Notes: generated by a model not told the origin, from the letters alone. A stretch of 64,000 nucleotides of DNA from Lentisphaeria bacterium UBA4640 (GCA_002405835.1 DHMO01000002.1:9531-73530), one strand, 5' to 3'. Positions 1 through 24,292 are shown, numbered from the stretch's first letter. Made by a program: numbers and translations.

Positions 1-3000
1 CGGGACTGTCTGCCATTTGCGGTTTCTCCATGCTCCGGAATCCTGCGTGAAATGCAGTTTTGCAGAGTTGATCCGGGAATTGGAAACATCCGCATTCAGA
101 GTTTTTCCATTTCGGCGGAGTGATGAAATCCGCGGAGCTGTATCTTCTTTGCTTTTGAGTTTGGAGTCAAAGAACGCGCAAATTTCGGGGAGCTCTTCGG
201 AGTTCTTGCCGTGTGCATGCCCGTAGTTCTGTCTCAAACAGAGTTCCGCCCCGGGAGTCGCGGCAACGGTTTTCATCCAGAGAGGAAGATAGAACGCGTG
301 GTCGTTTACTCCCGTAACATACAGAAACGGAATTTTTGACTGTGCAAGATAATTGAGCGGATCAAATTCATTGTTCCAGTAATCGCGGGTGTTTTCCGCG
401 CGTTCAGCGATCCGCTGGGCAAAACAGCTTTCAGCCAAAGCTCCGCTTCCGTAAACGGGGACTGCGCAGGCAAAACGCGGATCAAGGGAAGCGGCGACCT
501 CTGTCAGCACGCCGCCCCAGCTGACTCCGGTAATGCCGGTTTTCCCGGAATCAACTTCCGGAAAGGAGCGCAGGACGCTGTGTGCGCTGATTACAGAGGA
601 AAGCGCATGGTAGAACCATTGTCCGCCGATGGCGCCGTTTTTGAATTGCGGGATGCTTTCCCCGAGTGTTTCATCGGCAACGGTTGCCCCGATTTTCCGG
701 TAATCGCGTTCTGCAGGCAGACAGGAATTCGTATCCATTGCAATTGCGGCATAACCGCGGGAGTTCCAGAAACGCACCCAGTCTGCATAGGCGGTTGCTC
801 CGCCTCCATGTACCAGGACAACGCCCGGAACGCGTTTTTCCGGAGATGCCGATTCAGGAAATCCGATCCATGCGAAGTGACGGCGTCCCTCCGCTCCGGT
901 GTAGTAGATTCCGCGAACACCGGTTTCCGTGCGTTTTGTGCATTCTGTGACAACGGGCTTTTCTTCAATCCAGCGTGCAGCGCAGTCTTCAAGGATTGTT
1001 TTCCGGACAGCGATTCCAGGGGTTCGGTCTATGATTCCGAAGACAAGACGGTTGCTGATTGCAATCGGTGAGAAGCCCCAGCCGGCACTGCGTTTCGTTT
1101 TGCTTTTTTCGTTTTCCGCATCATTCACTTTCACGGCGAATCCGAGCCAGCGGTCTTTGGGTGCGGGAAAACTCAGAGACAGAGAATAACCGTCTTTTTC
1201 TGCTGTGATATGTCTCTGGAAATCGCTTTCCTTCAAAACCGGACTCCAGAGAGCAAATGGTTTTTCTGAATCCCGGGGCATCAGGAATACACGGAAGACG
1301 GAGTCGTTGTAATCCGCTTCTTTGCCGGGAATCAGTTCGCAGGGCGCGAGATCAATGAAGAGTTCGACACTGTCGGTTTCCCAGAATTCGCGTTTCCCGC
1401 TTGGTCCAGCGTTGGTTTTGTCCTGAACGCGCATGGAGAGTTCACAGCGGTCTCCGTTGAAAATAACGGTTCCGTATCCGGAAAGCTGACCGTCTTTGGA
1501 GGCAAAACGGAATTTTTCCCCTTGTGCAAGGTATTGATTCTTTTCAATTTTCATCTTGCCGGAAAAGTTCCGTCCGTCGACTCTGTAGTTTACATCCAGG
1601 GATTTCCCGGGATTCTCAATGGTGAGCAGTGTGCTTTTGTTTTCTCCGGGCTGAATGGTCTGTTCGTTTACAGCGGACCCGCTGAAAAGCAGAACTTCGG
1701 CCGGAGTTTTTGTGTAATTGGAAAGTCCGACTGCAACAGAACCGTTAAAAGCTCTGGAATATCCGGAAACTTCAACAGGACATTCCAGCTGCAGAGAGAG
1801 TCCTTCGAGACGTTTCAGATATTCTGCTTCCGACATTTTTCCCTGCTTCAGATAAAGCACGGATTCTGTAACGGGAAGGTCTGCTTCGGCAAGCGGATTG
1901 CCGAAGACATCCATCACTTCAAAGCCGTTGAAGTTTGCGTGAACGCCTTTTCTGTTCCCGTAATTCCAAAGACCGGCAATCAGCTGTTTGTCTTTGCGGA
2001 AAACATAACAGATCGTGTCATGCGGAAGCCGGATTTTCTGAACGGGCTTTGCCGCTTCGAAAAGGCGGGCGAGAGAGTTGCAGACAACAAATATGTCTGA
2101 TGGAGTCAAAGTTGTCAAGGAAGAGGTTGAGTCATAGATATGATTCGTATGACGCCGTTTCCAGAGGTGATGGTCGCTTAGACAGTTGGATTGCACAACT
2201 CCCTCTCCAATGTCGATCAGGAATCTGCTGACGAAGTGATGCGGCTGAATCTGTTCCTGCTGGCGCCCATCGTAATGAGCGTCTTTGGGCGGGTCGAAAA
2301 GATAGTACAGTTCCGTGTTCCAAATCGGATAATCTTTCTTCCCGAGAGTTTCGCGCAGTCCGGCAATATCTTTGTCCGCCGGATTGGGTGAGCCGAGCTG
2401 ACGGGAAAAATAGGGGTGGAAGCTCAGGGCGTCCGCATACTTCAGCGCATCCAGCTTTACGATCTCCTTTGTCCAGTCGGAGGTCGACTGTGCAAAGTCG
2501 CTAGAGATGCAGAAGCCGACAATGTAGCGCTCCGGATCCGCTTTTCTGATCTGTTTGCTGGCTTCCGCAAGATAGGTGACGTAATTTTCGGGGCTCAGGT
2601 ACAGATTCGGTTCATTGTTGATTTCAAAAATGCAGTTTTTCCCCTTCATGTGTTCCGTGAACTTGTAGATGAATTTGCCCCACAGGTCGAGCGGAGGAAG
2701 CAGAATTTTGCCGCGATGTGCCGCCAGAACATTGGGCGGATCGTTCTTTACCCGTGTACATAGCGGCTGAACCCATTTCGGCCAGCGCGGAAGTTCATAC
2801 GGCTGATGTCCTTCGATAAAATCTCCACGGACAATTGGGAAGAAAACAAAATTGTTTTTTTCACACAGTTCGTAGATCTGATCGACGGTGGAAAAGTCGA
2901 AAACTCCCCGATTTTCTTCGATGTAGCCCCATGCAGCAGTCCAGTGGTCGCGGATCATGCGGCAGCCGCTTTTTGCAACTAATGCATATCGGTCGGCAAC

Positions 3001-3945
3001 ACCCATTCCAAAGCCGCGGGCCCACGGACGGCGGATGACCGGCGGTTTGCGCATGAGCGGATCCATGTCGAAAGCAATGACAGCATCTTTGCGCACATCC
3101 ACTTTGCCGGGTACATAGCGTCCGATTACCGCAAACCAGCCGGGGAAATCATGGACATCTTTCCCCGAAGTTTCAATGCGGACACAGCCGTAGCGCTGCA
3201 GCTTTTCCGTGAATTTTTGCGAGAGGGTTTCTCCTGGATTCAGCGTTACCGTAAATGTTTTGCGGAAGAGTTCATCTCCGCTGTAATCCGCAATTCCGCG
3301 CACAGTCAGTTCCCGTTCAATTTTTTGTTTTGAGCGGTTCCACACTTTCAGTTCCAGTTCGGCGGAGCCGTCTTCAAGATGATACAGCTCTTTGGAAACT
3401 ACGGAGGTGTCGAGAGCCGCCTCCTGCGAAGCTACAACGCCGATTCTTTCCAGTTTCAAATCATCAAACCACAGTGTGCCTTTCTGCTGACCGATCGAGA
3501 GACAGATATGATAAAATCCATCAACCTGCGTTGTCACATCCATGGAAATCTGCTTCCATTCTTTTCCCGCGCGGAACTGCTTGTTGGATGATACCCATTT
3601 CTGGTCGATTGTAAGCAGATCGGCATTTACAAGCCGATTTTCGGCATCGGCTTTCACCCACATGGAGAAACGCCAGAGCTCCTGTTTTTTCAACGGGAAT
3701 TCCACAGATACGATTTCCGTGCGTTCTTTAAACGGGTTTTCGACTTTCAAGGAGTATTTCCCCGTTCGTCCGGCATCCAGCTTCCACGGAGTAAAAGTGA
3801 GTTTCGGATTTGTGTCTTCCGTCAGGAAACGGCGGATGGCAAAACCTTCCGTTCCCAGTTCAAAAGAACTGTTGAATAAAATGTCTCCTGCGGAAAGAGC
3901 TCCGGCCGGAAGGACTGCACATAATGCAAGAAAAAGTTTTTTCAT
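1..3945 (-). CDS. Secreted multidomain carbohydrate-active enzyme with its 3' end off-window (at least 1315 aa). Domain order: signal peptide, CBM4_9-like module, clan GH-A TIM-barrel glycosidase, CBM9/DOMON-like module, C-terminal alpha/beta serine esterase.
   Basis: Absent from the ORF track because it has no in-window stop. Manual minus-strand translation from the ATG at 3945-3943 stays open down to nt 1. The N-terminus MKKLFLALCAVLPAGALSAGD looks like a signal peptide. IFEINNEPN (NEP acid/base, nt ~2608-2616) and IWNTELYY (TE nucleophile, nt ~2309-2326) lie about 100 aa apart, as in clan GH-A. FWETDSVELFIDL is CBM9-like. VVLVHGGG...ITGVSWGG gives a GxSxG esterase elbow. The start overlaps the stop of the upstream gene (TGATG). 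Confidence 0.8.
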   Translation of the reverse strand, partial: MKKLFLALCAVLPAGALSAGDILFNSSFELGTEGFAIRRFLTEDTNPKLTFTPWKLDAGRTGKYSLKVENPFKERTEIVSVEFPLKKQELWRFSMWVKADAENRLVNADLLTIDQKWVSSNKQFRAGKEWKQISMDVTTQVDGFYHICLSIGQQKGTLWFDDLKLERIGVVASQEAALDTSVVSKELYHLEDGSAELELKVWNRSKQKIERELTVRGIADYSGDELFRKTFTVTLNPGETLSQKFTEKLQRYGCVRIETSGKDVHDFPGWFAVIGRYVPGKVDVRKDAVIAFDMDPLMRKPPVIRRPWARGFGMGVADRYALVAKSGCRMIRDHWTAAWGYIEENRGVFDFSTVDQIYELCEKNNFVFFPIVRGDFIEGHQPYELPRWPKWVQPLCTRVKNDPPNVLAAHRGKILLPPLDLWGKFIYKFTEHMKGKNCIFEINNEPNLYLSPENYVTYLAEASKQIRKADPERYIVGFCISSDFAQSTSDWTKEIVKLDALKYADALSFHPYFSRQLGSPNPADKDIAGLRETLGKKDYPIWNTELYYLFDPPKDAHYDGRQQEQIQPHHFVSRFLIDIGEGVVQSNCLSDHHLWKRRHTNHIYDSTSSLTTLTPSDIFVVCNSLARLFEAAKPVQKIRLPHDTICYVFRKDKQLIAGLWNYGNRKGVHANFNGFEVMDVFGNPLAEADLPVTESVLYLKQGKMSEAEYLKRLEGLSLQLECPVEVSGYSRAFNGSVAVGLSNYTKTPAEVLLFSGSAVNEQTIQPGENKSTLLTIENPGKSLDVNYRVDGRNFSGKMKIEKNQYLAQGEKFRFASKDGQLSGYGTVIFNGDRCELSMRVQDKTNAGPSGKREFWETDSVELFIDLAPCELIPGKEADYNDSVFRVFLMPRDSEKPFALWSPVLKESDFQRHITAEKDGYSLSLSFPAPKDRWLGFAVKVNDAENEKSKTKRSAGWGFSPIAISNRLVFGIIDRTPGIAVRKTILEDCAARWIEEKPVVTECTKRTETGVRGIYYTGAEGRRHFAWIGFPESASPEKRVPGVVLVHGGGATAYADWVRFWNSRGYAAIAMDTNSCLPAERDYRKIGATVADETLGESIPQFKNGAIGGQWFYHALSSVISAHSVLRSFPEVDSGKTGITGVSWGGVLTEVAASLDPRFACAVPVYGSGALAESCFAQRIAERAENTRDYWNNEFDPLNYLAQSKIPFLYVTGVNDHAFYLPLWMKTVAATPGAELCLRQNYGHAHGKNSEELPEICAFFDSKLKSKEDTAPRISSLRRNGKTLNADVSNSRINSAKLHFTQDSGAWRNRKWQTVP

Positions 3946-4475
3946 CAGCGGTTCTCTTTGGTTGTAATCTGAATGTTTCGAAATTCAATTTCACCGGAAG
4001 CTCCCTGGAGTCCGAGGACAAGCTGGGGCTTTTGAATTCCTGCCGGAATCTTCAGTGTTTTGCGGAAGAGCTGCCAGTCCTGTGCAGTTTGAACTTTTCC
4101 ATTCGGGAAGCAGCCGGCATAAATCATGGAACCGTCAGCTTTTTTATACATCAGCATGAACTTGATTCCCGCCCACGGCTTATTGATGGACGTAATTTCT
4201 TTCCATTGACTTTCCCAGGTGATTTCCACTGTTTTTCCGCAAGCGCCGATTCGGGTGAAGAGATCGTCAATATTGAGAATTACTACGGTGCCGACCTGCT
4301 TCGGTTCTTTGGAAAATATGCGGAGAACGCCGTTTTCAAAAGATGCAATTTCTCCGCTTTGACGGATTTTGGCAGAATATTCTTTCTGCGTAAAATCCAG
4401 GGGTGCTGCGAACGCGGCAATCGCGCTTCCTGCAATGAGGGCAAATAACAGTTTTTTCATGTTTGTTCCTTTCAA
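3945..4475 (-). CDS. Small secreted protein of unknown function (176 aa), probably a beta-sandwich or CBM-like fold
   Basis: ORF track. N-terminal signal peptide MKKLLFALIAGSAIAAFAAP. It sits between the pseudopilin gene (3-nt gap) and the giant CAZyme gene (1-nt overlap). I recognise no motif. Confidence 0.6.
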   Translation of the reverse strand: MKGTNMKKLLFALIAGSAIAAFAAPLDFTQKEYSAKIRQSGEIASFENGVLRIFSKEPKQVGTVVILNIDDLFTRIGACGKTVEITWESQWKEITSINKPWAGIKFMLMYKKADGSMIYAGCFPNGKVQTAQDWQLFRKTLKIPAGIQKPQLVLGLQGASGEIEFRNIQITTKENR

Positions 4476-4478: not shown

Positions 4479-5261
4479 TTAATCTTCCCAAGCAACCTTT
4501 GACCGTTTGTCCGGGTCCGGGTCGGTTTGATTTGTGCTGTAGAAAATTTCGGTATCCCGTCCCTTCCACCGAGTCCGTGTCGCGGAATGACCGTCCAGAA
4601 ACAGGATCGTTCCGGAATTGTTGTGGTTCGGGCCTATGCCGAAAGAAGAGTTCAGCATCCGCAAGCCGCGTCCTCCAGTTCTTCCGATGGAGCCTTCCTG
4701 AAAACCATACGTTGGCGGTTTCTGATATTCGTATGTGGAATTTTTGTTTACAAGATCTTTGTAATCTGCACAGGCAATGGCATAGAAAGAGGCTATCCGC
4801 TTATATTGGGAAATCTTGAACGTAACAACGGGCGCCAGAGCATTGGGTGTCAGAATCCGCATAATTGCGTAGCTGCGCGGAAGCGCCGGTCCGCCCATGG
4901 AAGGCAGTTCCGGATAGTTGTCGTGTCCGGGACAGAGGAAGCCTTTCCATGATTGCGCATTGGCTTTATGCGCCCATTTCTCACTGTCTGAAAGTTTTCC
5001 TCCCATATATCGTCCATACTCATAATCCCATGTTGTTTCATACCCTTGATTCCTGTCCTGCATGGCGACATATCCATCGTAATCGGCAATATAGTTCTGC
5101 ATGGCGGTTCCGATCTGCTTCAGATTGCTGAGGCACTGCATGCCGCGCGCTTTCTCCCTCGCGGAATTCAGCGCGGGAAGAAGCATTCCGGCAAGGATTG
5201 CAATGATCGCAATTACCACAAGAAGTTCTATAAGGGTGAAATTTTTGATAATTCTTTTCAT
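4479..5261 (-). CDS. Prepilin-type N-terminal cleavage/methylation domain protein with C-terminal H-X9-DG motif (pseudopilin-like, DUF1559 type)
   Basis: N-terminus [33 protein letters not shown] is a class III signal / N-methylation motif. The C-terminal [12 protein letters not shown] matches H-X9-DG exactly. Confidence 0.9.
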
Positions 5262-5372
5262 TTTTCTCTCAACCTTTCTGTTTTGGATGATTCAATATTC
5301 TGCGCTCTGTTTACATTATACTCCATAAGTGCGAAAAAGTCAATATCTTTTTCAGGAAAAAGAAAAAGTTTA

Positions 5373-5400
5373 TTGACATATCTAAAAAGCGGTGTATAGT
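5373..5400 (+). promoter_or_regulatory. Sigma70-like promoter for the GntR-type regulator
   Basis: TTGACA (5373-5378), 16-nt spacer, TATAGT (5395-5400). AGGAG RBS at 5411-5415. Confidence 0.5.
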
Positions 5401-5421: not shown

Positions 5422-6426
5422 ATGGGAAAACTGGAAGAAATCGCCGAACTGCTGAAAAAAAGAATCGACGGGGGAGTTTATCCGCCCAATGTGCGTTTGC
5501 CGTCGGAATATGAACTTGCGGATGAACTCGGAGTCAACCGCATCACACTCAACAAGGCAGTCAACAGGCTCATCGCCGACGGTTATCTGCGGCGCGGCTC
5601 AAGCTCCCGCGACGGAACTTATGTCCGCGACCGCTCCGAACTTGTCAAAGAGACGCTCGGACTCCTTATCCGCTGCGGAAACCTCTATGCCGATCAGCTC
5701 ATGCATGGCGTGATCGACGGCGCGCTGCGGAACAATTATCTGCTCTCCGTCATGGCGCCCGAACTCGAAGAGGTCCGGATCGCCGAACGGAAAATGCTTG
5801 CAAACGGAATTGAGGGCGTCTTCCTCGCCTCCTATGCGAACTTCCCGCTCTCCGCGCCCGGCGTGCTCATCGACTCCTTTTTCGACACCGATCCGGAACG
5901 CAACACGATCATTTCCGACGTGCATTCCGGAGGACTTCAGATGGCGGAAGCTCTGCTCGAAAAGGGACACCGGGAAATTGTTGTCGTCATGTACTCCTCT
6001 TTTCCGTTTGCGCGGAACCCGCGCTGCGCCGCATTCCTTGAGGCTTTCCGCCGCGCGGAGATTCCGGATATGGAGGAACGGTTTTTCTACAGCAACAACC
6101 GTTCCCGCGAGCAGCTTCTCAAAATGATTTTTTCCGCATTTCCCGATACAACCGCAATTGTCGGAGAGAACGACACTATGACATTTGAGCTCTGGCAGGC
6201 TCTGCGCCGTCTCGACCCCGTCCGCGCGGACCGCATCACTTTCGCCGGATTCGGGAATCTGCCCGGCGTGCAGAGCGTCTTTCCGTTTGTGACGGTGGAC
6301 CAGCATCCTTACGAACTCGGCTGCCGCGCCGTGCAGCTCTATCTCAACTGGCGCGACGACGGCAGAAACCGGCATGAACTCGTGCCGGTTTCGGTGATGA
6401 ACACCGACCGTATCCGTGAGGTTTGA
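5422..6426 (+). CDS. Transcriptional regulator: GntR-type winged HTH fused to a LacI/PBP1-type sugar-binding domain
   Basis: LPSEYELADELGVNRITLNKAVNRLIADGYLRR is a GntR HTH. The remainder resembles a periplasmic-binding-protein type I effector domain. The ORF-track start at 5392 lies inside the predicted promoter. The ATG at 5422 is 6 nt after AGGAG; 5416 is an alternative. Confidence 0.8.
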   Translation: MGKLEEIAELLKKRIDGGVYPPNVRLPSEYELADELGVNRITLNKAVNRLIADGYLRRGSSSRDGTYVRDRSELVKETLGLLIRCGNLYADQLMHGVIDGALRNNYLLSVMAPELEEVRIAERKMLANGIEGVFLASYANFPLSAPGVLIDSFFDTDPERNTIISDVHSGGLQMAEALLEKGHREIVVVMYSSFPFARNPRCAAFLEAFRRAEIPDMEERFFYSNNRSREQLLKMIFSAFPDTTAIVGENDTMTFELWQALRRLDPVRADRITFAGFGNLPGVQSVFPFVTVDQHPYELGCRAVQLYLNWRDDGRNRHELVPVSVMNTDRIREV

Positions 6427-6744: not shown

Positions 6745-7535
6745 TCTTCCGGTCAAGAGCTGATGCGGCGATTCCCGCGGCGGTCGGAGTGGATATCGGC
6801 TGCGGGATAGTTGTGGTAGAGACGGATGTACCCGCGGTGCGTCTTGCGGAATGAGTTTCCGCCGTGCCATTCAGGAGAAGGTGAAAGAGCGGATCCCCGT
6901 CGGCGAAGGCGTCGGGCACAAGGAGAAGCAGGAGTGGGATGGCTTTGAGTCCTATCTCGACAACAATGGGCAGGTCTCCGACTTCGTGAACACGCTTGAC
7001 CGCAAGAATCTTGGAACGCTTGGCGGCGGCAACCACTTTATCGAAATCCAGAAATCCGATGCGGGATTCGTCTGGCTCATGATTCATTCGGGTAGCCGCA
7101 ACCTTGGAAAACGCGTCGAGGAGTTCTATCACAGCAAGGCGTCGACTCTCAATGAACGCTACCGTGTAGCGCTTCCTGATCCCGATCTGGCGTTTCTGCC
7201 GATTCAGGAAGAGGGGTACGACTACTTCCGCGACATGCTTTTTGCGCTCCATTATGCGTACGAAAACCGTCAGTGCATGATGAAGGTTCTGAAAGAGACT
7301 TTTTCAGGAGTTTGTGCCGGAAACGAATTTCCTCCGCGAGATGAACATCCACCACAACTACGCGGCGTTGGAGGAGCATTTCGGTGAAAAGCTCTACATT
7401 CACCGCAAGGGGGCGACGAGTGCGAAACTGGATGAGACCGGCTTCATCCCCGGGTCGATGGGAACGGCAAGCTACATCGTCCGCGGACTCGGCAATCCGG
7501 AGTCGTTCATGAGCTGTTCGCATGGAGCGGGAGGC
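6745..7535 (+). pseudogene. rtcB: Decayed RNA ligase RtcB relic with at least 2 frameshifts; both N- and C-termini missing
   Basis: Three frame segments align in order to E. coli RtcB: AAIPAAVGVDIGCG then a stop; NLGTLGGGNHFIEIQ...WLMIHSGSRNLG...LAFLPIQEEGYDYFRDML; then a frame switch near 7310-7330 to REMNIHHNYAALEEHFGEKLYIHRKGATSA...GFIPGSMGTASYIVRGLGNPESFMSCSHGAG. Homology stops at about 7535, 8 nt from the end of the convergent esterase gene. Confidence 0.8.
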
Positions 7536-18800: not shown

Positions 18801-21130
18801 ACCCGATGTATTGGGGAGACGATGACAATGTCAAGCAGGCGGGGCTCCGTCCCGACAATCATGTCGCACTGGGCGTGGTTCAGGACTTCATGCAGCTGGA
18901 ACCGCTCGGACGCCTGATTCAGAAGGAATATTCTCCGCTCCGGGTTTTCCTTGCCGGCGATCCGGATGATTTCACGAACAAGGATCACGCGTTTTTCTCG
19001 AATGAAGCGTTCCGGAAAAGCATCGTCGTTGTGAACGACCGGATGAGCAGACAGAAGCTCCGGTTCCGCTGGACTTTCACCGTCGGCGGGAAAACCGTTG
19101 ACAGCGGCGAGCTGAGCGAAGACGCCGCACCCGGCGCAATTCTCAAGTTCCCGGTCAATCTGACCGCTCCGGAAGTTGCGGCGCGGACGGAAGGCAAACT
19201 TTCGCTCGACGTTTTTCTCAATGACAAAGGATTCGATACGGATGAATTCGCCGTTCAGATTTTCCCCCGGACGGAGCGTCCGGATTTCCGTTTCACCGAG
19301 CCGGCCGGACTTTACGATCCCGCCGGAAAGACGGCGGAACTTCTGAAGCGGGCGGGGTATCCGTTCCGCAAGATTTCCTCGGCAGAGGAAGCCCGTTCGC
19401 ACCGGGTCCTGATTATCGGACAGGATGCTCTGGGAGATCACGTTCCCCGTTTTCTGAAGGAGATGGAGAAGAGCGGCGATTTCCGCATCGGAAAGAAGAT
19501 TCTTTTCTTCGAGCAGCAGCCCTGCAACCTTGCGAACTTCGTATTCGAATCTCCGAACAGCCGAGAAGCGTTCATCCGGCGCAGCGACAGCCCGTACATA
19601 CAGGGCTTGACGGATGCGGATTTCCGCGACTGGCGCGGCTCTTCCGACACGCGTCCCGCGAAACACGTCAGCAACCCCGACACGACGTTCCATTATCCGC
19701 GCGACAAATGGAAAATCGGAAACGGCGGCATGGTTGCCGGCAACGTCATCCGCAAGCCTTCTTACGGACAATTCCGGACGATCGTCGACTGCGGATTCAA
19801 TCTGATGTTCTCTGCACTGATGGATTACAAGAACGGACGCGGTTATGCGCTGTTCTGCCAGCTTGATGTGACCTCCCGTTACGGCAAGGATCCTGTTGCG
19901 ACCCGGATAGTCGACAACATTCTGACGGAATTCGCCAATCCGGCTCTTCCGATTTCGAATCAGACGGCAGTCTATTACGGCGATGCGGAAAATGAAGCAG
20001 TTTTGAAACGTCTCGGCGTCGGTTATGTCAAAGGCAACGCATATGACCCGAACGGATTCCTCACAAAGGGTATTGTGATTCTCGGGCGGAATGCGATTCC
20101 AAAAGAGATGCGCGAACGGTTCCGCAAGAACTTTGAAGCGTATCTTTCCGGCGGTCACTACGCAAAGGGAATCGTCGTCTGTCTCCCCGGGGCACCGCTG
20201 GATCTTCTTCCCGTGCCCATGTCGACGGAGAAAAAGCTGATGTTCCGTGCGGAGCTGCCGGCAAATGATCCGCTCTTCGCGGGCATGACCGAGGCTGATT
20301 TCTATTTCCGCACCGCACGTGAACTCAATGCTGTGAAAGCGCCGGACTGGACGGTCGCCGCACGTCCCGCGGTTCTTGCCCGCACGGGTTTTCATCAGGG
20401 CGGAGCGGTTGTCTACGTCGGCTTCACGCCCGATATGTTTGAGGATGCGTTCTGGAACAAGGAGAAAGCAACCCGGATCTGGAACACGCTGTTTGTCAAT
20501 CTGAATTTGCCGCTCAAGCAGGAGCTGAGTCTTTTCGGCAATACACGGATGCGTCACAACACGAAGACTCCGGAGAGCGCATCGCTTGCACTGACCGAAG
20601 GTTTTCTGAAACTCGATCCTCGCAACAGCGGCAAGGTTTCGGATACGGAGGGATTCAAGCCGTACAAGCCCGGGATTCCGTGGGAGAAACAGGGATTCAC
20701 TCAAGTGAATCCGCATTACAGGTATCCGGCAAATGCTCCGGCGAACATGAAGATCCCGTACGACGGTTACGCATGGATCCGGATTCCTGTCCGGATTCCG
20801 GCGGACTGGAAATCGTATTCGATCCGTCTTTCCGGCGGACCGGTTGACGATGCGGATGAAACCTGGTTCAATGGCGTGAAGATCGGCGAAACGACGCTTG
20901 CGAAGCATCCCGACTCCTATTCCCGGATCCGGAATTATCCGGTTCCTTCGAGTGCGGTCCGGTTCGGAGAAGAAAACGTTCTGATGATCCGCGTGTTTGA
21001 CCGCTGGGGTTTTGGCGGCGTCACCGGTCCTCTTCGTCTGCTGGCTGAGGAGCCGCAGTCCGGTTCGACGGCTTCTCCCTATGTAGAGAATTTGAATCTC
21101 TACGATGTGGATGCATTCCACAACTGGTGA
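15818..21130 (+). CDS. Giant secreted protein (1770 aa): LamG domain, GH2-like module (sugar-binding jelly roll, Ig-like domain, TIM barrel), about 600 aa of unassigned domains, and a second C-terminal GH2-N-type jelly roll
   Basis: Signal peptide MRLMTKLAAVLFVPCSLMAA. LamG block REGTVSFFFRPNWERKDGK. WYQRTFKVPEAWKGKRIFLNFENLNGDYGRVYLNGKLIESF is GH2-N like. FGFRELWVENGEFRLNGFKKRF is the GH2 TIM-entry motif. The C-terminus GYAWIRIPVRIPADW...ETWFNGVKIGE...VLMIRVFDRWGFGGVTGP forms the second jelly roll. Confidence 0.8.
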   Translation: MRLMTKLAAVLFVPCSLMAAFPKVIVPFDENPTIFNGGGNPCGLAVVSGKSSYVDGVDGKALAVQRIAYDQVTAVNLNKLPDLNAREGTVSFFFRPNWERKDGKSYYLFQAGKWRSDFFLVFVKDASGQLELSVCTPKQRQLFVKNADLKAGKWVHITFSWNLAKGEQAIYLDGKPAARKSQAEWKDPGYNFRGQWNIWLGKGGSDRFKAEVAEGAFDSLKIYDVQLSDNEVLADFLGSYAKTMRPVPVEQVRRNDGKLEFRFSAPVKRFSNAQPLLSLKSGKSLITVSSTGASGKLTLNGGGKLLDSPYVINLTRPLKLSIRPEGRKAGIWFDDAFQGYLELPGGWDGLDSVNAAEGITLSAPEFSEKEIAPLKRKADGALEKCLWNLNDAQKVDSGVRQSISLNGYWRMFEDDSYAFSPALPAEQHYVRIPGSRRSSCFQLYRGKNGKLESLNVQEGPRTTADWYQRTFKVPEAWKGKRIFLNFENLNGDYGRVYLNGKLIESFRQDYKSFAAVPNARRIDVTDLLQEENVLSVFLTHFIRLYWRNLPDMRDTWNIVLGDAWLEAGPSPVFVKSAVAFPSVRKGTLEMRATVENPQGVKGDAELTFRYRRAGSEKSFSKKFRLDGSEKQRIVFTEPWKKPVLWSEESPELYAQSVALSVNGKTADMLPERDFGFRELWVENGEFRLNGFKKRFRMSANPQFDSLNMYLSHPRAVAQYVAQLKRMNFDSVRFNPSIIQRNAGFYNTPAYLRECGRQGISNFFPMPFYEGGDEAQYREWVENYLEFFGTFPSIVLWYTDFNTCSYAACQDPYYLNDTSYVPKERVLKARKFVEVADRTMRSLDPSRECVPHAAGNFGKVFGSMNYQSFGTPLQEQEDWPKIWSEKHTQPLVSFESSFPYPLQFTYFDGPIGHYMNAEHAARYFGDSVFRDEIAPVQFGKWFRFSPVTPNSANYIRGAAEMCRRVIRSWRAYDISSLGDFTSLDEAFRLSAAGSHHPMYWGDDDNVKQAGLRPDNHVALGVVQDFMQLEPLGRLIQKEYSPLRVFLAGDPDDFTNKDHAFFSNEAFRKSIVVVNDRMSRQKLRFRWTFTVGGKTVDSGELSEDAAPGAILKFPVNLTAPEVAARTEGKLSLDVFLNDKGFDTDEFAVQIFPRTERPDFRFTEPAGLYDPAGKTAELLKRAGYPFRKISSAEEARSHRVLIIGQDALGDHVPRFLKEMEKSGDFRIGKKILFFEQQPCNLANFVFESPNSREAFIRRSDSPYIQGLTDADFRDWRGSSDTRPAKHVSNPDTTFHYPRDKWKIGNGGMVAGNVIRKPSYGQFRTIVDCGFNLMFSALMDYKNGRGYALFCQLDVTSRYGKDPVATRIVDNILTEFANPALPISNQTAVYYGDAENEAVLKRLGVGYVKGNAYDPNGFLTKGIVILGRNAIPKEMRERFRKNFEAYLSGGHYAKGIVVCLPGAPLDLLPVPMSTEKKLMFRAELPANDPLFAGMTEADFYFRTARELNAVKAPDWTVAARPAVLARTGFHQGGAVVYVGFTPDMFEDAFWNKEKATRIWNTLFVNLNLPLKQELSLFGNTRMRHNTKTPESASLALTEGFLKLDPRNSGKVSDTEGFKPYKPGIPWEKQGFTQVNPHYRYPANAPANMKIPYDGYAWIRIPVRIPADWKSYSIRLSGGPVDDADETWFNGVKIGETTLAKHPDSYSRIRNYPVPSSAVRFGEENVLMIRVFDRWGFGGVTGPLRLLAEEPQSGSTASPYVENLNLYDVDAFHNW
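16073..16358 (+). repeat. Copy 2 of the LamG-coding direct repeat
   Basis: See 15295-15580. Confidence 0.8.
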
Positions 21131-21218: not shown

Positions 21219-23411
21219 TTATTTTATCTGGAAATGCTGTGTTCCGCTGAACGTGTGCGAGGTGCCGTCCGGAAGAAACAGGGTTCCGGGAATGCCCGGA
21301 GGAATTGAGGCGGTCAGCTCTATGCCGGATGAGGTCCGGTTCCAGAAAACGGAAATCCGGCCGTAGACGGAATCGTAATGCGCGTTCATCGAATGAAGTG
21401 CATCAATGAATTTCGGTTTCAGGACAACCTCGCGGAAGCCCGGACGCGTAAACGAAGGCTCGATTCCGCCGGGATACTGCATCATCCATGCCGCAAGGTC
21501 GCCGTACATGACATGACTGTGCGAACAGCGTCCGGCAAAATCTTCCAGAAGCGCAGTCTCGCCGTCTCGAATCCATTTGCACCAGCCGGGGAACTTTTCC
21601 TGAGTGAAAATCCGGAATGCCGTGTTTTCGTACCCGTAATCCGCAAGCACTCGCGGGACAAATTTCGCTCCGGCGATTCCGAAGTCCGCAATGCATTCGT
21701 CTTCCCGCATTTTGCGGTCGAGAAGCGCGGCGGAAAGACGCGCTTCCGCATCATCGCAGAGTCCGAATGCGGCGGGAAGGGCAAGTGCGGTTTTCTCATC
21801 TTTTGCCCATGAACCGCCGCCGTTGGAAAAGTGTTTGCGGAACGACTCCGCAACTTCTGCGGCGCGGTCGAGCGCCCTTGCGGCGTCTTCGCGGAAGCCG
21901 AACAGCGATGCCGTCTCCGCAAAGATTTTCAGATTCCGGAAGTACCAGGCGGTTGTGACGAATTTGGGGGCAACCGCGCGGGTGCGGTCGTAGTGACACC
22001 AGTCGCCGAGCCCGAAACGGACGATGCCGTCTTTTGCAAGCGATTTTGTAAACTGGAGATTGAGCTTGAAAGCGTCGTAGTTTTCGCGGAGGAGCGAGCT
22101 GTCGCCGCGGTAGATGTAGACGTTGCGCGGAACTCCGAGCAGAAAGTTGTCGAAGAGCGGACCGCTGCCCCAGTTGTATCCCCAGCCGGAGGTCGGCGCC
22201 ATGCCCGGAAGCTGTCCGTTCGGACGCTGGCAGTCGCGGAGCGTTCCCAGGAATTCCCGGTAGAGTTCGGATGCGTCAAACTGGAAGAGAACGGAATCGG
22301 AGGCAAGCTGATGGTCGTTGATCCAGCCGTTTTTCTCGCGGTGCGGACAGTCGGTCGGAATGCCGACAAAATTGTTGAGGATGGAGCGGCGTGTGCAGCG
22401 TCCGAGTTCGTTCATGTCCGGATGTGAACAGGAGAATCCGCCGGTTTCCGCAAAGTCGCTTCCGATGACCTGCGCGGTCAGGGAGAGAATTTCCGCATTG
22501 CCGGAGATTTCGACTGCGGCGTAGCGGAAGCCGTGGTAGGTGAATCGCGAGTGCCAGTTTTCCGCGCCGCCGCCCTTGAGAATATAGCGTTCGGTCTGGA
22601 ATTCGCCGCTTTTGATGAACCGCGCAATGTCATTGAGATGCAGCGACCCGTCGGGGTTGAGCACGTCGCCGTACTGGATTCGGATTTCGCTCCCGCGGGT
22701 GCCGCGGACGGTGAGTTCCGCGCGTCCGGCAATGTTGACTCCGGCGTCCCAGAGTCCGGGCTTGATCTGTTTCATCGGGAAGAGCTCGCGGACGCGGCAG
22801 GGCGGAGCGGTCTGTTCAAAGAGGAATCCGCCGGGACCGGCTGTGATGACGGCGCGGCTCCATGCGGAATCGTCGAATCCGTTTTCCGCCCATCCGGGAA
22901 TTTCAAGACGGGCGTCATAATATTCGCCGTTGCGCAGACCGTCAAAGGTGATCGGGCCGCTTGCCGTGACCTTCCACGAGTCGTCGCTTGCGAGGATGAT
23001 TTGTCCGTCTGCGACAATTTCGAGGAGAAGTTTCGGATAGTCGCGCCAGGTTGCCTTGTCGAAGTGCCAGGTTTCCGCAGTGTGGCAGTTGTAGAGTCCG
23101 TTTCCGAGGACGGCGCCGATGGTGTTGAGCCCGGGCTTGAGGTATGCGGAGATGTCGTATCGGAGATACCCGGCATGACGGTCGTAGTTGGTCGGTGCGG
23201 GAGCAAGCTCGGCGTTTCCGACGCGGCGTCCGTTGAGCCAGATTTCATGATAGCCGAGTCCGCAGACGAATGCTTCGCACGATTTTTCCCCGTCGATCCG
23301 GAACTCTTTTCGGAACCAGGGGGCGGGAAGAACTTTTGCCTGCCAGTCGACCATCTCCGCTCCGGCGGAGATCCAGTATGCGTTCCACTCTCTGGTATTT
23401 GAAAAAGCCAT
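21219..23411 (-). CDS. GH78 alpha-L-rhamnosidase (730 aa)
   Basis: N-terminus WNAYWISAG...PAPWFRKEF...GYHEIWLNGRRVG. Catalytic-domain motif PTDCPHREKNGWINDHQ. GGAGAG RBS. Confidence 0.9.
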   Translation of the reverse strand: MAFSNTREWNAYWISAGAEMVDWQAKVLPAPWFRKEFRIDGEKSCEAFVCGLGYHEIWLNGRRVGNAELAPAPTNYDRHAGYLRYDISAYLKPGLNTIGAVLGNGLYNCHTAETWHFDKATWRDYPKLLLEIVADGQIILASDDSWKVTASGPITFDGLRNGEYYDARLEIPGWAENGFDDSAWSRAVITAGPGGFLFEQTAPPCRVRELFPMKQIKPGLWDAGVNIAGRAELTVRGTRGSEIRIQYGDVLNPDGSLHLNDIARFIKSGEFQTERYILKGGGAENWHSRFTYHGFRYAAVEISGNAEILSLTAQVIGSDFAETGGFSCSHPDMNELGRCTRRSILNNFVGIPTDCPHREKNGWINDHQLASDSVLFQFDASELYREFLGTLRDCQRPNGQLPGMAPTSGWGYNWGSGPLFDNFLLGVPRNVYIYRGDSSLLRENYDAFKLNLQFTKSLAKDGIVRFGLGDWCHYDRTRAVAPKFVTTAWYFRNLKIFAETASLFGFREDAARALDRAAEVAESFRKHFSNGGGSWAKDEKTALALPAAFGLCDDAEARLSAALLDRKMREDECIADFGIAGAKFVPRVLADYGYENTAFRIFTQEKFPGWCKWIRDGETALLEDFAGRCSHSHVMYGDLAAWMMQYPGGIEPSFTRPGFREVVLKPKFIDALHSMNAHYDSVYGRISVFWNRTSSGIELTASIPPGIPGTLFLPDGTSHTFSGTQHFQIK

Positions 23412-23483: not shown

Positions 23484-23524
23484 ATAACGAAAGATGTATC
23501 TTTTCGCGACAGAATGGAGAATAT

Positions 23525-24292
23525 ATGGTACACGATAAAATGCTTCCGGAAATTTATCTGACCCGCCACGAAACGGGGATATACCCGTGGCGTCAGCCGA
23601 ACCTTTTCACTCCGTTCTGGCGCTGTTACTGGAATCCGTCCGAAGGCGGCTGCCTCCAAGTCGGGGAACGGGAGTTTGAGATGCGGACCGACCGTATTTA
23701 CGTTATTCCGGGACACTTCCGTTTTTCGACGTTTGCACGGAAGCCGTTCGAGCAGTTTTACATTCATTTTGTCCCGCCGGAACATGTTGTTTTCTCTGAA
23801 CCGGGGATTCATGAGACTCCGCTGACTCCGGAATGCCGTGCGCTTTTTCTGGAGTGGCTTGAGTTGAAGGAGGCGGGCGATGAGTACAGCTTCCGCTGTG
23901 AAGTGATAGCCGCGGCGGTGCTCTGTCATGCTCTGCTCAGTCTGCCGCGCGACCGTATGCTCTACCGTGAGTCGCCTGGACCTCTGGCGGAACGCGCCTC
24001 TGCATTGATCCGGGAGAACATCGCGCATCCGCTTTCGAATGCGGAGCTTGCCATGCGCTGCGGCACGGAATTGCGTACGTTTCTGCGCCATTTTCGCAAG
24101 GAGACTGGCGAGAGTCCGCAGCAGTACAGCCGCCGGATCCGTGTGGAAGCCGCGTGCCGTTATCTGCGTTATTCGGACAAAACGATCGACGAGATTGCCG
24201 AACTGACCGGTTTCCCTGACCGTTATTATTTTTCGCGGGTATTCCGTCAATATCAGCACTATCCCCCCGCCGAGTACCGCCGCGCACAGTGA
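23525..24292 (+). CDS. AraC-family transcriptional regulator (cupin-like sensor plus HTH)
   Basis: The C-terminus LRTFLRHFRKETGESPQQYSRRIRVEAACRYLRYSDKTIDEIAELTGFPDRYYFSRVFRQ is a typical AraC double HTH. The gene is divergent from the GH78 gene. Confidence 0.9.
   Translation: MVHDKMLPEIYLTRHETGIYPWRQPNLFTPFWRCYWNPSEGGCLQVGEREFEMRTDRIYVIPGHFRFSTFARKPFEQFYIHFVPPEHVVFSEPGIHETPLTPECRALFLEWLELKEAGDEYSFRCEVIAAAVLCHALLSLPRDRMLYRESPGPLAERASALIRENIAHPLSNAELAMRCGTELRTFLRHFRKETGESPQQYSRRIRVEAACRYLRYSDKTIDEIAELTGFPDRYYFSRVFRQYQHYPPAEYRRAQ

What the first reader, a model, noticed from the sequence alone, without database searches (positions are those of the whole stretch)
1..24292. Recurrent design rule across a 24-kb glycan locus, a candidate PUL analogue built around pseudopilins instead of SusC/D
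The region holds three sugar regulators (GntR-PBP, LacI, AraC), two GH78-type rhamnosidases, a SASA esterase, an SGNH esterase, a clan GH-A/esterase fusion and a LamG-GH2-like giant. It contains no SusC/SusD pair, no ABC sugar importer and no TonB receptor. The only recurrent non-enzymatic structural component is the DUF1559/H-X9-DG pseudopilin, present once per operon. The enzyme set (rhamnosidases plus O-acetyl esterases) points to an acetylated, rhamnose-containing polysaccharide such as rhamnogalacturonan, ulvan or a host or algal glycan. I infer that each operon pairs a dedicated pseudopilin with its enzymes. As far as I know, that role has not been experimentally defined.
Basis: inference. 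Interest (0 to 1): 0.7.

Follow-up and report, generated by a model that had tools for sequence, protein, structure and literature searches.

The report
Pilin-like genes heading exported-enzyme sugar operons
In this gut-type Victivallales bacterium, each sugar-regulated operon that encodes big exported glycan-degrading enzymes starts with its own pilin-like protein, and strains swap that protein's variable head together with the enzyme, which gives a huge protein family of unknown function a testable role.

Summary
The gene inventory is confirmed, but "one pseudopilin per operon" is not. There are two DUF1559/H-X9-DG pilin-like genes (4479-5261-, 13218-14066+) in about seven transcription units. 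They sit only in the two operons whose products carry signal peptides. The SASA esterase and both GH78 rhamnosidases stand alone and have no signal peptide.

A real design rule exists. In 34 other Lentisphaerota loci, the gene just upstream of a pilin-like gene is a LacI/GntR/AraC regulator in 20/39 cases, against 5/133 controls (p=3e-11). The next downstream gene is usually a giant exported protein.

A strain 99.7% identical over 19 kb diverges exactly at codon ~53 of pseudopilin 1. It carries a different head (30% identity) and an unrelated giant enzyme.

Two further points. A stand-alone lectin- or CBM-like protein precedes each giant enzyme, and one of them is a 57%-identical copy of the giant's N-terminal domain. 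Lentisphaerota leaders also lack the Gly/Ala that normally ends a prepilin leader (4/44 have it, versus 53/53 in sister phyla).

My best reading (about 0.4) is an operon-specific adaptor of a shared type II secretion or type IV filament machine that exports or displays the co-encoded enzymes. A SusC/D-like uptake role is not excluded but is untested.

The parts
1..3945 (-). Giant exported enzyme 1, the first 1315 of 1353 aa; its C-terminus lies left of the window. It has a Sec signal peptide, an N-terminal CBM4_9-like domain, a weak GH5-like stretch, a CBM9-like domain and a CE7-type acetyl-xylan-esterase domain. It is the last gene of operon 1 inside the window and belongs to the swappable cassette.
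   Evidence: Pfam hits: AXE1 3.3e-10; CBM_4_9, CBM9_1 and Cellulase all below the curated cut-offs. PDB sequences: cephalosporin-C deacetylase / AXE at residues 1012-1216. N-terminus MKKLFLALCAVLPAGALSAGD. Full length from L001.
3945..4460 (-). 171-aa exported stand-alone protein with a CBM-like beta-jelly-roll fold, lying between pseudopilin 1 and giant enzyme 1.
   Evidence: It has a signal peptide and no Pfam or NCBIfam hit. The AF2 model has pLDDT 74. Foldseek matches CBM70, CBM22, CBM16 and CBM4 at E about 1e-6 and TM 0.5-0.66. HMMER finds 57 relatives, both stand-alone proteins and N-terminal domains of 500-1800-aa proteins. It shows no sequence similarity to giant 1.
4479..5261 (-). Pseudopilin-like protein PP1 (260 aa), of the DUF1559/H-X9-DG family, first gene of operon 1. 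Its leader MKRIIKN ends in Asn, not Gly/Ala.
   Evidence: PF07596 at 38.4 bits (cut-off 23.3) and N_methyl at 21.3 bits. Motif H213-X9-D223-G224-H225. AF2 pLDDT 87 and pTM 0.85, with helix 10-60 plus a four-stranded sheet. Only the helix matches solved pilins.
5103..5261 (-). The segment of PP1 that encodes the invariant leader and alpha-1 helix (codons 1-53). Strain-level homology ends at 5103, so this is the left recombination breakpoint of the head-plus-enzyme cassette.
   Evidence: Locus L095 is 99.7% identical to window 5103-24066 and unrelated to the left of 5103. The two alleles share 51 identical N-terminal residues and are then 30% identical.
5315..5400 (.). Divergent promoter-like sites: 5343-5315 (-) for the PP1 operon and 5373-5400 (+) for the GntR-type regulator.
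   Evidence: Both match 11 of 12 consensus positions and are among the three best sites in 20 kb. These are consensus matches only.
5422..6426 (+). GntR-HTH plus periplasmic-binding-protein-fold sugar regulator, divergent from PP1. It is unchanged (97% aa) between the two cassette alleles.
   Evidence: Pfam GntR 2.3e-14 and Peripla_BP_3 3.5e-8.
6851..7387 (+). RtcB fragment (178 aa), probably a gene remnant. It lies in a 3.1-kb segment that also holds the SASA gene and is absent from one related contig.
   Evidence: NCBIfam and Pfam RtcB partial match. L001 lacks window 6428-9541.
7543..9468 (-). SASA-family carbohydrate esterase (641 aa). It has no signal peptide, is monocistronic and has no pseudopilin.
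   Evidence: Pfam SASA 6.4e-21. N-terminus. Promoter-like site 9530-9502 (-).
9656..12031 (+). GH78-like protein (791 aa; 6-hairpin and C-terminal domains). It has no signal peptide, is monocistronic and has no pseudopilin.
   Evidence: Pfam, N-terminus, a promoter-like site at 9579-9607 and a terminator-like site at 12094-12107.
12140..12168 (+). Consensus sigma-70-type promoter-like site in front of the LacI-PP2 operon.
   Evidence: It matches 12 of 12 positions and has an extended TG. It is the best site in 20 kb.
12196..13221 (+). LacI-family regulator, first gene of operon 2. Its stop codon overlaps the PP2 start by 4 nt.
   Evidence: Pfam LacI 7.5e-8. The overlap follows from the coordinates.
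13218..14066 (+). Pseudopilin-like protein PP2 (282 aa). Its leader ends in Lys. It has the same invariant alpha-1 helix as PP1, a divergent head and an H-X11-DG variant motif.
   Evidence: N_methyl at 21.2 bits, at the cut-off, and no PF07596 hit. It aligns with the family at 27-29% identity and keeps C43, C110-P111 and DG-H.
14082..15011 (+). Exported DUF4886 protein (309 aa), the putative SGNH-type esterase.
   Evidence: Pfam DUF4886 2.6e-38. Matches PDB 4i8i, a hypothetical protein. Signal peptide. The SGNH clan assignment rests on my own knowledge.
15052..15744 (+). Exported 230-aa LamG protein, a stand-alone paralogue of the N-terminal domain of the next gene, signal peptide included.
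   Evidence: 57% identity over 235 aa, E=2e-86. Laminin_G_3 hit. The DNA repeat 15294-15641 versus 16072-16419 is 79% identical.
15818..21130 (+). Giant exported enzyme 2 (1770 aa): signal peptide, LamG domain, GH2 sugar-binding and Ig domains, and a C-terminal stretch like part of sialate O-acetylesterases.
   Evidence: Pfam, PDB sequence matches and signal peptide.
21219..23411 (-). Full four-domain GH78 alpha-L-rhamnosidase (730 aa). It has no signal peptide, is monocistronic and has no pseudopilin.
   Evidence: Pfam 1.5e-68 and N-terminus.
23525..24292 (+). AraC-family regulator, divergent from GH78b.
   Evidence: Pfam HTH_18 9.7e-21.

Best explanation
Shown. This is a chromosomal glycan-utilisation locus of an uncultured Victivallales bacterium (Lentisphaerota). 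It follows a lineage-specific operon grammar: a sugar regulator (LacI, GntR-PBP or AraC type), then one operon-specific type-IV-pilin-like protein (DUF1559/H-X9-DG), then Sec-exported proteins. The exported proteins include a stand-alone lectin- or CBM-like protein and a giant multidomain esterase or glycosidase. Cytoplasmic finishing enzymes (SASA, GH78) sit in separate units without a pilin-like gene. The pilin-like proteins share an invariant 50-residue N-terminal helix and have divergent heads. Head and enzyme are exchanged between strains as one cassette.

Inferred mechanism. When the regulator releases the operon, the pilin-like protein inserts into the inner membrane. Through its invariant helix it joins a shared type II secretion / type IV filament machine that is encoded elsewhere. 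Its variable head acts as a cargo-specific adaptor. It recognises the co-encoded exported proteins, plausibly through their N-terminal lectin- or CBM-like domain, and drives them across the outer membrane and/or holds them at the cell surface. There they attack an acetylated, deoxyhexose-containing glycan. An unlinked transporter imports the products, which are finished by the cytoplasmic esterase and rhamnosidases.
For: - Taxon: SecY is 97% identical to a Victivallales MAG protein.
- Architecture in the window.
- Only the operons that contain a pseudopilin encode signal-peptide proteins (giant 1, the 171-aa protein, DUF4886, LamG230, giant 2). SASA, GH78a and GH78b have no signal peptide.
- Lentisphaerota-wide rule: a regulator is immediately upstream in 20/39 cases against 5/133 controls, p=2.9e-11, and the frequency falls with gene distance (21/73, 6/56, 2/43, 5/133).
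- Pfam confirms this: Peripla_BP_3 14, GntR 7, AraC 5 and LacI 4 among 95 upstream genes, and none among 110 controls.
- The +1 same-strand gene has a signal peptide in 15/25 cases against 18/133 (p=2.5e-6) and is at least 700 aa in 15/25 against 9/133 (p=6e-9).
- Downstream genes carry DUF4838, LamG, CBM9, GH67N, GH43, GH78, sulfatase and BNR domains.
- Annotated contexts L007 and L090-L094 show the same order.
- Cassette swap: flanks are 99.7% identical in DNA over 19 kb. The breakpoint is at PP1 codon ~53, the heads are 30% identical and the giant enzymes are unrelated. The regulator stays 97% identical.
- The invariant helix is kept by selection on the protein, not by gene conversion: 13 of 37 identical residues use different codons. 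Glu5 is invariant. This fits contact with a common machine.
- The AF2 model has the pilin lollipop fold at pLDDT 87.
- Glycan-binding modules are supplied by separate proteins.
- Precedent: a pulG-like pseudopilin sits in an alginate gene cluster whose genes are induced on alginate, a pseudopilin is among the over-expressed genes, and there are 67 paralogues. The authors suggest export by the type II system (PMC13274419).
Against: - No secretin, ATPase, platform or prepilin-peptidase gene lies in the window or in the annotated contexts, so the machine is assumed rather than seen.
- The leaders end in Asn and Lys, not Gly/Ala. A review calls the Gly/Ala ending invariable (PMC10191384). Cleavage, and therefore filament assembly, is in doubt.
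- No characterised type II system has cargo-specific pseudopilins.
- About half of the Lentisphaerota pilin-like genes have no adjacent regulator, and 10 of 25 +1 genes are not predicted to be exported.
- Contact between head and enzyme is untested.
- The swap breakpoint may simply mark where homology is available.
- The Mantel correlation between head and enzyme similarity (r=0.57, p=2e-4) rests on a few orthologous pairs.
- Gene calls and the signal-peptide predictor were home-made. The loci were chosen by similarity to PP1 and are not phylogenetically independent.
Confidence: 0.4

Rival explanations
1. Glycan-capture or uptake pilin, the first reader's PUL analogue. The variable head binds the target polysaccharide. 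A retractile pseudopilus or pilus reels the glycan to or through a secretin into the periplasm. It would thus replace SusD/SusC in function, as competence pili do for DNA.
For: - The locus has no SusC/D, TonB-dependent receptor or ABC importer.
- There is one pilin-like gene per exported-enzyme operon, under a sugar regulator.
- Head diversity is high, as expected for many ligands.
- Pilins that bind glycans exist in other bacteria (S. sanguinis minor pilins, bioRxiv 10.1101/2022.08.25.505150).
- Planctomycetes take up dextran through crateriform structures (discussed in PMC11131199).
Against: - The head shows no similarity to CBMs, lectins or SusD by fold or by profile.
- Dedicated CBM- and lectin-like proteins are already present in the same operons.
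- The head is swapped with the enzyme while the sugar-sensing regulator is unchanged.
- No retraction ATPase or secretin has been seen.
- The non-canonical leader is as much a problem here as for the export model.
Confidence: 0.2
2. Not a filament subunit at all. Without Gly/Ala at position -1 the protein is not cleaved. It stays a bitopic inner-membrane protein with a periplasmic head and serves as an operon-specific periplasmic tether, holdase or sorting factor for the giant exported enzymes, or as a sensor.
For: - Only 4 of 44 Lentisphaerota leaders end in Gly, against 53 of 53 Gly/Ala in Verrucomicrobiota and Planctomycetota.
- The loss coincides with the lineage in which the regulator linkage appears.
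- The leaders look like plain positive-inside anchors, for example MKRIIKN and RRRSNK.
Against: - Residues +1 to about +31, including the buried Glu5, are invariant among paralogues that are otherwise about 30-40% identical, despite synonymous differences. A simple membrane anchor would drift.
- Glu5 is normally explained by pairing with the free N-terminus produced by cleavage (PMC10191384).
- A prepilin peptidase with relaxed specificity cannot be excluded.
Confidence: 0.2
3. Linkage without a specific partnership. The pilin-like paralogues serve one general envelope or pilus function such as adhesion or envelope architecture. They sit at operon heads because their conserved 5' segment and promoter-proximal position spread by duplication and recombination. 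The cassette swap reflects only where homology allows crossing-over.
For: - The swap breakpoint lies exactly at the end of the conserved segment.
- The 5' segments of paralogues are about 80-90% identical in DNA over 60-140 nt.
- Many family members in Planctomycetota and Verrucomicrobiota show no regulator linkage.
- In P. limnophila the family has 68 paralogues of unknown function, two of them essential (PMC10632474).
Against: - Position-specific enrichment is strong: regulators only at -1, giant exported proteins at +1.
- Pilin-like genes are absent from the cytoplasmic-enzyme units of the same locus.
- The same pilin-enzyme pairs are conserved across genomes (L007/L090; L091b/L010/L092/L093).
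Confidence: 0.12

Closest known systems
DUF1559 / prepilin-type H-X9-DG proteins (Pfam PF07596 'SBP_bac_10'; TIGR04294) of Planctomycetota, Verrucomicrobiota and Lentisphaerota
   Same: PP1 is a member (38.4 bits). It has the same N-terminal [16 protein letters not shown] helix, the conserved Cys pair, the CP motif and H-X9-DG-H. The paralogue families are huge: the search saturated at 8000 candidates, and 68 copies are reported in P. limnophila (PMC10632474).
   Different: The family's function is unknown. Here, and in Lentisphaerota generally, members are embedded in sugar-regulated operons for exported enzymes and lack the Gly/Ala that ends the leader. The sampled Planctomycetota and Verrucomicrobiota members keep Gly/Ala and show no regulator linkage.
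pulG-like pseudopilin in the alginate-utilisation cluster of Verruconatronum alginivorum (PMC13274419, 2026)
   Same: A pilin-like gene sits inside a polysaccharide-degradation gene cluster. There are 67 paralogues in the genome, and a pseudopilin is over-expressed on the substrate. The authors propose that a separately encoded type II system exports the lyases.
   Different: That is a single case in another phylum (Opitutales). The passages I read report no general rule, no regulator-pilin adjacency, no cassette exchange and no leader anomaly.
Bacteroidota polysaccharide utilisation loci (SusC/SusD type)
   Same: These are substrate-dedicated loci with their own regulators. They combine non-catalytic surface components with exported and intracellular CAZymes, and strains vary them in modules.
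   Different: There is no SusC-like TonB-dependent transporter and no SusD-like lipoprotein here. The recurrent non-catalytic gene is a pilin-like protein whose binding or import role is unproven.
Type II secretion of glycanases (Klebsiella pul secreton for pullulanase, Dickeya Out, Cytophaga hutchinsonii T2S; PMC5553014)
   Same: Folded glycan-degrading enzymes with Sec signal peptides are exported by a pseudopilus machine. In Klebsiella the enzyme and the secreton genes are co-regulated by a sugar regulon (my own knowledge).
   Different: Those systems have one full gsp cluster with five fixed pseudopilins that serve all cargo. Here there is one extra pilin-like gene per enzyme operon, no core genes nearby, and GspG model scores far below the cut-off (35-39 bits against 88.85).
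[quoted passage not shown]
   Same: Sugar-utilisation proteins carry pilin-type signal peptides and depend on a type-IV-filament-like assembly system.
   Different: Those are archaeal and are true ABC-transporter binding proteins that sit next to their transporters. Here there is no transporter and no solute-binding fold.
Cassette systems with a conserved 5' part and a variable 3' part plus a cognate downstream gene (Neisseria pilE/pilS variation; CdiA-CT/CdiI and Rhs tips; my own knowledge)
   Same: A conserved N-terminal coding segment serves as the recombination point. The variable C-terminal part is exchanged, here together with the next gene or genes.
   Different: There is no evidence here for silent cassettes, for immune evasion or for toxin-immunity logic. 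The co-swapped partner is a giant glycan-active enzyme.

Membership tests
DUF1559 / H-X9-DG pilin-like family (PF07596, TIGR04294) | Match to PF07596 above the gathering score | tested here: met
   PP1 scores 38.4 bits against a cut-off of 23.3. PP2 has no PF07596 hit, but it aligns with the family and keeps C43, C110-P111 and DG-H. PP1 is therefore a member and PP2 a divergent relative.
DUF1559 / H-X9-DG pilin-like family (PF07596, TIGR04294) | C-terminal His, nine residues, then Asp-Gly | tested here: met
   PP1 has H213[10 protein letters not shown]223-G224. PP2 has H-X11-DG, a variant spacing. The NCBIfam copy returned no H-X9-DG model hit.
Type IV pilins / type II secretion pseudopilins (class III signal peptide) | Hydrophilic leader that ends in Gly or Ala directly before the hydrophobic helix | tested here: not met
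   Position -1 is Asn in PP1 and Lys in PP2. In Lentisphaerota only 4 of 44 are Gly/Ala, against 29/29 in Verrucomicrobiota and 24/24 in Planctomycetota. The feature is defined in PMC10191384.
Type IV pilins / type II secretion pseudopilins (class III signal peptide) | Hydrophobic stretch of 20-25 residues with Phe+1 and Glu+5; match to N_methyl / TIGR02532 | tested here: met
   The sequence is [23 protein letters not shown]07963 scores 21.3 and 21.2 bits (cut-off 21.2). TIGR02532 scores 21.7 and 21.5 bits (cut-off 16.3). Glu is invariant in 65 homologues. The profile aligns Phe to residue 1 of mature solved pilins.
Type IV pilins / type II secretion pseudopilins (class III signal peptide) | Lollipop fold: a long alpha-1 helix packed on an antiparallel beta-sheet head | tested here: met
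   The AF2 model has pLDDT 87.3 and pTM 0.85, with helix 10-60 and four strands. Foldseek matches pilins only over the helix (E of at least 0.6), so the head has no solved relative.
Type IV pilins / type II secretion pseudopilins (class III signal peptide) | Cleavage and N-methylation by a prepilin peptidase, and assembly by an ATPase, platform and secretin machine | not testable with these tools
   No such genes are among the window ORFs scanned. The whole genome was not available. Processing needs experiments.
GspG major pseudopilin (TIGR01710 equivalog) | Score above the curated cut-off over the whole GspG domain | tested here: not met
   The scores are 35 and 38.8 bits against a cut-off of 88.85, and the match covers the N-terminal 60 residues only.
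Bacteroidota-type PUL | Adjacent SusC-like TonB-dependent transporter and SusD-like lipoprotein | tested here: not met
   No TonB_dep_Rec, Plug or SusD family hit in any ORF of 1-24292 or in the flanks.
CAZyme gene cluster in the broad sense (CAZymes plus transcription factor and/or transporter) | Several CAZyme genes co-localised with dedicated regulators | tested here: met
   GH78 x2, SASA, a CE7-like esterase, a GH2-like protein and CBM/LamG proteins lie with GntR, LacI and AraC regulators in 24 kb. No transporter is present.

The most novel reading that the evidence does not exclude
Lentisphaerota run a SusC/D-independent way of using polysaccharides. One shared type IV filament or type II secretion machine is 'programmed' by more than 100 sugar-induced, operon-specific pilin-like adaptors. 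Each variable head is matched to the N-terminal lectin/CBM domain of its co-encoded giant enzyme, or to the glycan itself. Head-plus-enzyme cassettes are shuffled between strains by recombination in the invariant helix-coding segment. Because the leaders lack Gly/Ala, this would also need a new mode of prepilin processing or a non-cleaved pilin class.
Probability: 0.3. Interest if true: 0.85.

Novelty: new variant of a known kind. Interest (0 to 1): 0.68.

Why it matters
DUF1559/H-X9-DG proteins are among the largest paralogue families of the PVC bacteria, with tens to hundreds of copies per genome, and have no known function. How these SusC/D-poor but CAZyme-rich bacteria secrete enzymes and handle glycans is also open.

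This locus and the comparative data give four concrete, testable handles:
- A position-specific operon grammar: regulator, then pilin-like gene, then exported giant enzyme.
- A natural allele pair in which head and enzyme are swapped while the regulator is kept.
- Stand-alone copies of the enzymes' N-terminal lectin/CBM domains as candidate docking partners.
- A lineage-wide loss of the canonical prepilin cleavage residue.

If the adaptor model holds, it would be the first cargo-specific pseudopilin system and a new principle for substrate selection in type II secretion. If the uptake model holds, it would be a new glycan import route in gut and marine bacteria.

Tried and rejected
- **Operator search.** I looked for palindromic operators in the five regulatory intergenic regions and found none at seed 6 and length 12. 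Regulon membership is therefore unresolved.
- **Small-paralogue rule.** I tested whether 'a small stand-alone paralogue of the giant's N-terminal domain' is general. It occurred in 0 of 54 small-then-large adjacent pairs in the other loci. It is real in window operon 2 and twice in L091, but it is not a phylum-wide rule. For operon 1 it holds only at the level of fold and domain family.
- **Head domain.** Foldseek against PDB and a profile search against PDB sequences found no relative beyond the helix.
- **NCBIfam.** It gave no H-X9-DG model hit.
- **Pfam counts across all PVC loci.** The downstream gene set gave a diluted, uninformative picture until I split it by phylum.
- **Gene conversion.** I rejected it as the cause of the invariant helix, because 13 of 37 identical residues use different codons.
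- **Literature.** Searches for DUF1559, H-X9-DG, and pseudopilin plus PUL or Victivallales found no description of the rule. The Lentisphaerae phage paper and the Legionella T2SS paper held nothing relevant.
- **Type II/IV core genes.** They could not be located, because only the window and 10-kb flanks were available.
- **ORF at 31939-32727.** It follows the hydrolase pair that precedes a pseudopilin in L092, but it is not a pilin-like gene.

Full report
**What is in the window**

A greedy ORF call plus Pfam, NCBIfam and PDB-sequence searches, checked against gene calls on four metagenome contigs that carry the same locus, give the following map of 1-24292.

- Operon 1, minus strand:
  - pilin-like PP1 (4479-5261);
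  - a 171-aa protein (3945-4460);
  - a giant enzyme (1-3945). It is cut by the window edge and is 1353 aa in full. Its CE7-type AXE1 esterase domain is significant. Its CBM4_9, GH5 and CBM9 hits are below threshold.
- A divergent GntR-HTH/PBP regulator (5422-6426).
- An RtcB fragment (6851-7387).
- A SASA esterase (7543-9468, minus strand).
- A GH78-like protein (9656-12031).
- Operon 2, plus strand:
  - LacI (12196-13221);
  - pilin-like PP2 (13218-14066), whose start overlaps the LacI stop by 4 nt;
  - DUF4886 (14082-15011);
  - a 230-aa LamG protein (15052-15744);
  - a 1770-aa LamG/GH2-like giant (15818-21130).
- A full GH78 (21219-23411, minus strand).
- AraC (23525-24292).

The strongest promoter-like sites in 20 kb fall exactly in the expected intergenic gaps: 12140-12168, 5343-5315, 5373-5400, 9579-9607 and 9530-9502.

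No SusC/D, TonB-dependent receptor or ABC importer is present here or in the flanks. To the left of the window lie a fucosidase, a third GH78, a methyltransferase and rnpA-yidD-yidC. SecY in the window is 97% identical to a protein named from a Victivallales MAG, and the nearest pilin homologues are labelled Lentisphaeria or Victivallales.

**Check of the observation**

The inventory is right. The statement 'once per operon' is wrong. A six-frame motif scan finds only two pilin-like genes in the whole 64 kb. The locus has about seven transcription units.

The informative pattern is a different one. Every protein encoded in the two pseudopilin operons within the window has a Sec signal peptide: giant 1, the 171-aa protein, DUF4886, LamG230 and giant 2. 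The three enzymes that stand alone (SASA, GH78a, GH78b) have none. The fucosidase that follows giant 1 just outside the window also has none, so the operons can end with cytoplasmic enzymes.

**Is it more than chance?**

I collected 80 loci from species-representative genomes with a pilin alignment. I added annotated metagenome contexts. I called ORFs myself. I then compared the neighbours of pilin-like genes with control genes at least four genes away in the same loci.

- **Regulators upstream.** Pfam scans of all 95 immediate upstream neighbours gave Peripla_BP_3 in 14, GntR in 7, AraC in 5 and LacI in 4. These families were absent from the list returned for 110 control genes, where no family matched more than two members.
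- **By phylum.** Splitting the loci by record title, with iterated local HMMs, shows that the signal is confined to Lentisphaerota: 20/39 against 5/133 controls (Fisher p=2.9e-11). Verrucomicrobiota give 0/25 and Planctomycetota 1/23.
- **By distance.** Regulator frequency decays with gene distance: 21/73, 6/56, 2/43, then 5/133.
- **Orientation.** PBP-type regulators lie co-directionally with gaps of -46 to 221 bp. Four of the five AraC types are divergent.
- **Downstream genes.** In Lentisphaerota, the next same-strand gene has a signal peptide in 15/25 cases against 18/133 (p=2.5e-6). It is at least 700 aa in 15/25 against 9/133 (p=6e-9).
- **Downstream families.** They include DUF4838 (6), LamG, CBM9, GH67N, GH43, GH78, sulfatase and BNR.
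- **Annotated contexts.** These repeat the order regulator, pilin-like gene, exported giant: L007, L090, L091 twice, L092, L093 and L094.

Caveats: the gene caller and the signal-peptide rule were home-made, although applied equally to test and control sets. The loci were ranked by similarity to PP1 and are not phylogenetically independent.

**A natural experiment**

Contig L095 is 99.7% identical to the window over 18,965 nt (5103-24066). Homology stops at 5103, which is codon ~53 of PP1. Beyond that point L095, and also L093, carry a different head and a 1175/1176-aa CBM9-containing exported protein. They have no 171-aa gene.

- The two alleles share 51 identical N-terminal residues. The heads are 30% identical.
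- The giant enzymes are essentially unrelated (22% over 333 aa).
- The flanks are conserved at the protein level: regulator 97%, fucosidase 95%, GH78 96%, methyltransferase 99%.
- Homology resumes 12 nt before the fucosidase start.

So the head and its enzyme or enzymes move as one cassette behind a fixed regulator, promoter and helix. Across 33 modules, head similarity tracks enzyme similarity (Mantel r=0.57, p=2e-4), but a few orthologous pairs drive this result.

**The pilin-like proteins**

Paralogues that are otherwise 27-46% identical are invariant from Phe+1 to about residue +31. They also keep Cys43, Cys110-Pro111, His213 and Asp223-Gly224-His225. PP1 and PP2 use different codons at 13 of 37 identical positions. 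The conservation therefore reflects selection on the protein, not gene conversion.

The AlphaFold model of PP1 is confident (pLDDT 87, pTM 0.85). It shows a 51-residue helix and a four-stranded sheet. Only the helix resembles solved pilins, by fold and by profile. The head has no solved relative. GspG-model scores are far below the cut-off.

One result was unexpected. The residue before Phe+1 is Asn in PP1 and Lys in PP2. Across Lentisphaerota it is Gly in only 4 of 44 cases and Ala in none. In Verrucomicrobiota 29/29 and in Planctomycetota 24/24 have Gly or Ala. A recent review states that the leader 'invariably' ends in Gly or Ala (PMC10191384). Either these proteins are not cleaved, or the lineage's peptidase has a different specificity. 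The invariance of buried Glu5 argues for the second option, but this cannot be settled here.

**The small exported proteins**

LamG230 is 57% identical over its whole length, signal peptide included, to the first 235 residues of giant 2. In L091, two modules show the same arrangement at 50-51% identity.

The 171-aa protein has no sequence likeness to giant 1. Its model (pLDDT 74) is a CBM-type jelly roll, matching CBM70, CBM22, CBM16 and CBM4 at E about 1e-6. Its 57 remote relatives are either stand-alone proteins or N-terminal domains of 500-1800-aa proteins.

The arrangement is not general in the other sampled loci (0 of 54 pairs). It does show that glycan-binding-type modules are supplied separately from the pilin-like protein.

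**How it most likely works**

Shown: the architecture, the enrichment statistics, the cassette exchange and the pilin fold.

Inferred, at about 0.4: the pilin-like protein is an operon-specific adaptor of a shared type II secretion or type IV filament machine. It exports or displays the co-encoded enzymes.

- The invariant helix would be the interface to the common machine.
- The variable head would be the interface to the cargo.
- The head changes with the enzyme but not with the regulator, which favours enzyme recognition over glycan recognition.
- The closest published case, a pulG-like pseudopilin with 67 paralogues in an alginate cluster, was read the same way (PMC13274419).

Rivals are a glycan-capture or uptake pilin (0.2), an uncleaved inner-membrane tether or holdase (0.2), and linkage without a specific partnership (0.12).

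The main weaknesses are these. No machine genes were seen. The leader is non-canonical. Cargo-specific pseudopilins have no precedent. About half of the family members lie outside the rule.

**Comparison and novelty**

PP1 is a member of PF07596 and PP2 is a divergent relative. Neither passes the class III signal-peptide definition at position -1, and neither is a GspG. The locus is a CAZyme gene cluster but not a SusC/D-type PUL.

I found no description of any of the following in the searchable literature:
- the grammar of regulator, pilin-like gene and exported enzyme;
- the head-plus-enzyme cassette exchange;
- the leader anomaly.

I rate the finding a new variant of known kinds (polysaccharide-utilisation clusters and type IV filament proteins), with a plausible route to something more novel.

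Noticed in passing
window 5103 (inside PP1, 4479-5261-); loci L093 and L095: Two alleles exist at the same chromosomal site in near-identical strains. Homology (99.7% over 19 kb) ends at codon ~53 of the pilin-like gene. The variable head and the downstream giant enzyme are replaced together, while the regulator is kept.
   Followed up: yes
window 5240-5261 and 13218-13274; Lentisphaerota loci L005-L087: The leader peptides of Lentisphaerota pilin-like proteins end in K, R, N, S, T, D and other residues instead of the canonical Gly/Ala (4/44 Gly). All 53 sampled Verrucomicrobiota and Planctomycetota members have Gly/Ala.
   Followed up: partly
window 15052-15744 versus 15818-16520 (DNA repeat 15294-15641 / 16072-16419, 79% identical); L091 977-1528 and 8807-9355: A small exported protein is a stand-alone paralogue (50-57% identity, signal peptide included) of the N-terminal domain of the giant enzyme encoded immediately downstream. 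This was seen three times in two genomes but not in 54 comparable gene pairs elsewhere.
   Followed up: partly
window 6428-9541: A 3.1-kb segment that holds the RtcB fragment and the SASA esterase is absent from contig L001. To the right of it, L001 is only 91% identical to the window, against 98.9% to the left. This suggests strain-level mosaicism and an insertion or deletion.
   Followed up: partly
window 27845-31850; L092 3853-7864: An LCAT-like lipase/esterase (504 aa) and an 837-aa alpha/beta-hydrolase form a gene pair. In L092 a pair with the same Pfam families and similar lengths sits after an AraC gene and directly before a pilin-like gene and a GH44-like giant. In the window it is followed instead by a 262-aa coiled-coil protein that is not pilin-like.
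   Followed up: partly
window 27589-27680 (-) and 38246-38325 (-): A tRNA-Ser (GCT) lies in the 0.8-kb non-coding gap after the LysR gene and is confirmed by Rfam. ARAGORN also calls a tRNA-Val inside an ORF of the ribosomal-protein/secY region. Rfam does not support that call, so it is probably false.
   Followed up: no
window 40085-41071 (-): A second LacI-family regulator with a full PBP domain lies next to secY and has no adjacent pilin-like gene. Not every sugar regulator in this genome follows the rule.
   Followed up: no
Lentisphaerota downstream-gene set (alignment A5): DUF4838, an uncharacterised family, is the commonest family directly downstream of pilin-like genes (6 of 44). GH67 N-terminal-domain hits occur in 2 of the same 44 genes. 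Many of the giant downstream proteins have no Pfam hit at all.
   Followed up: no
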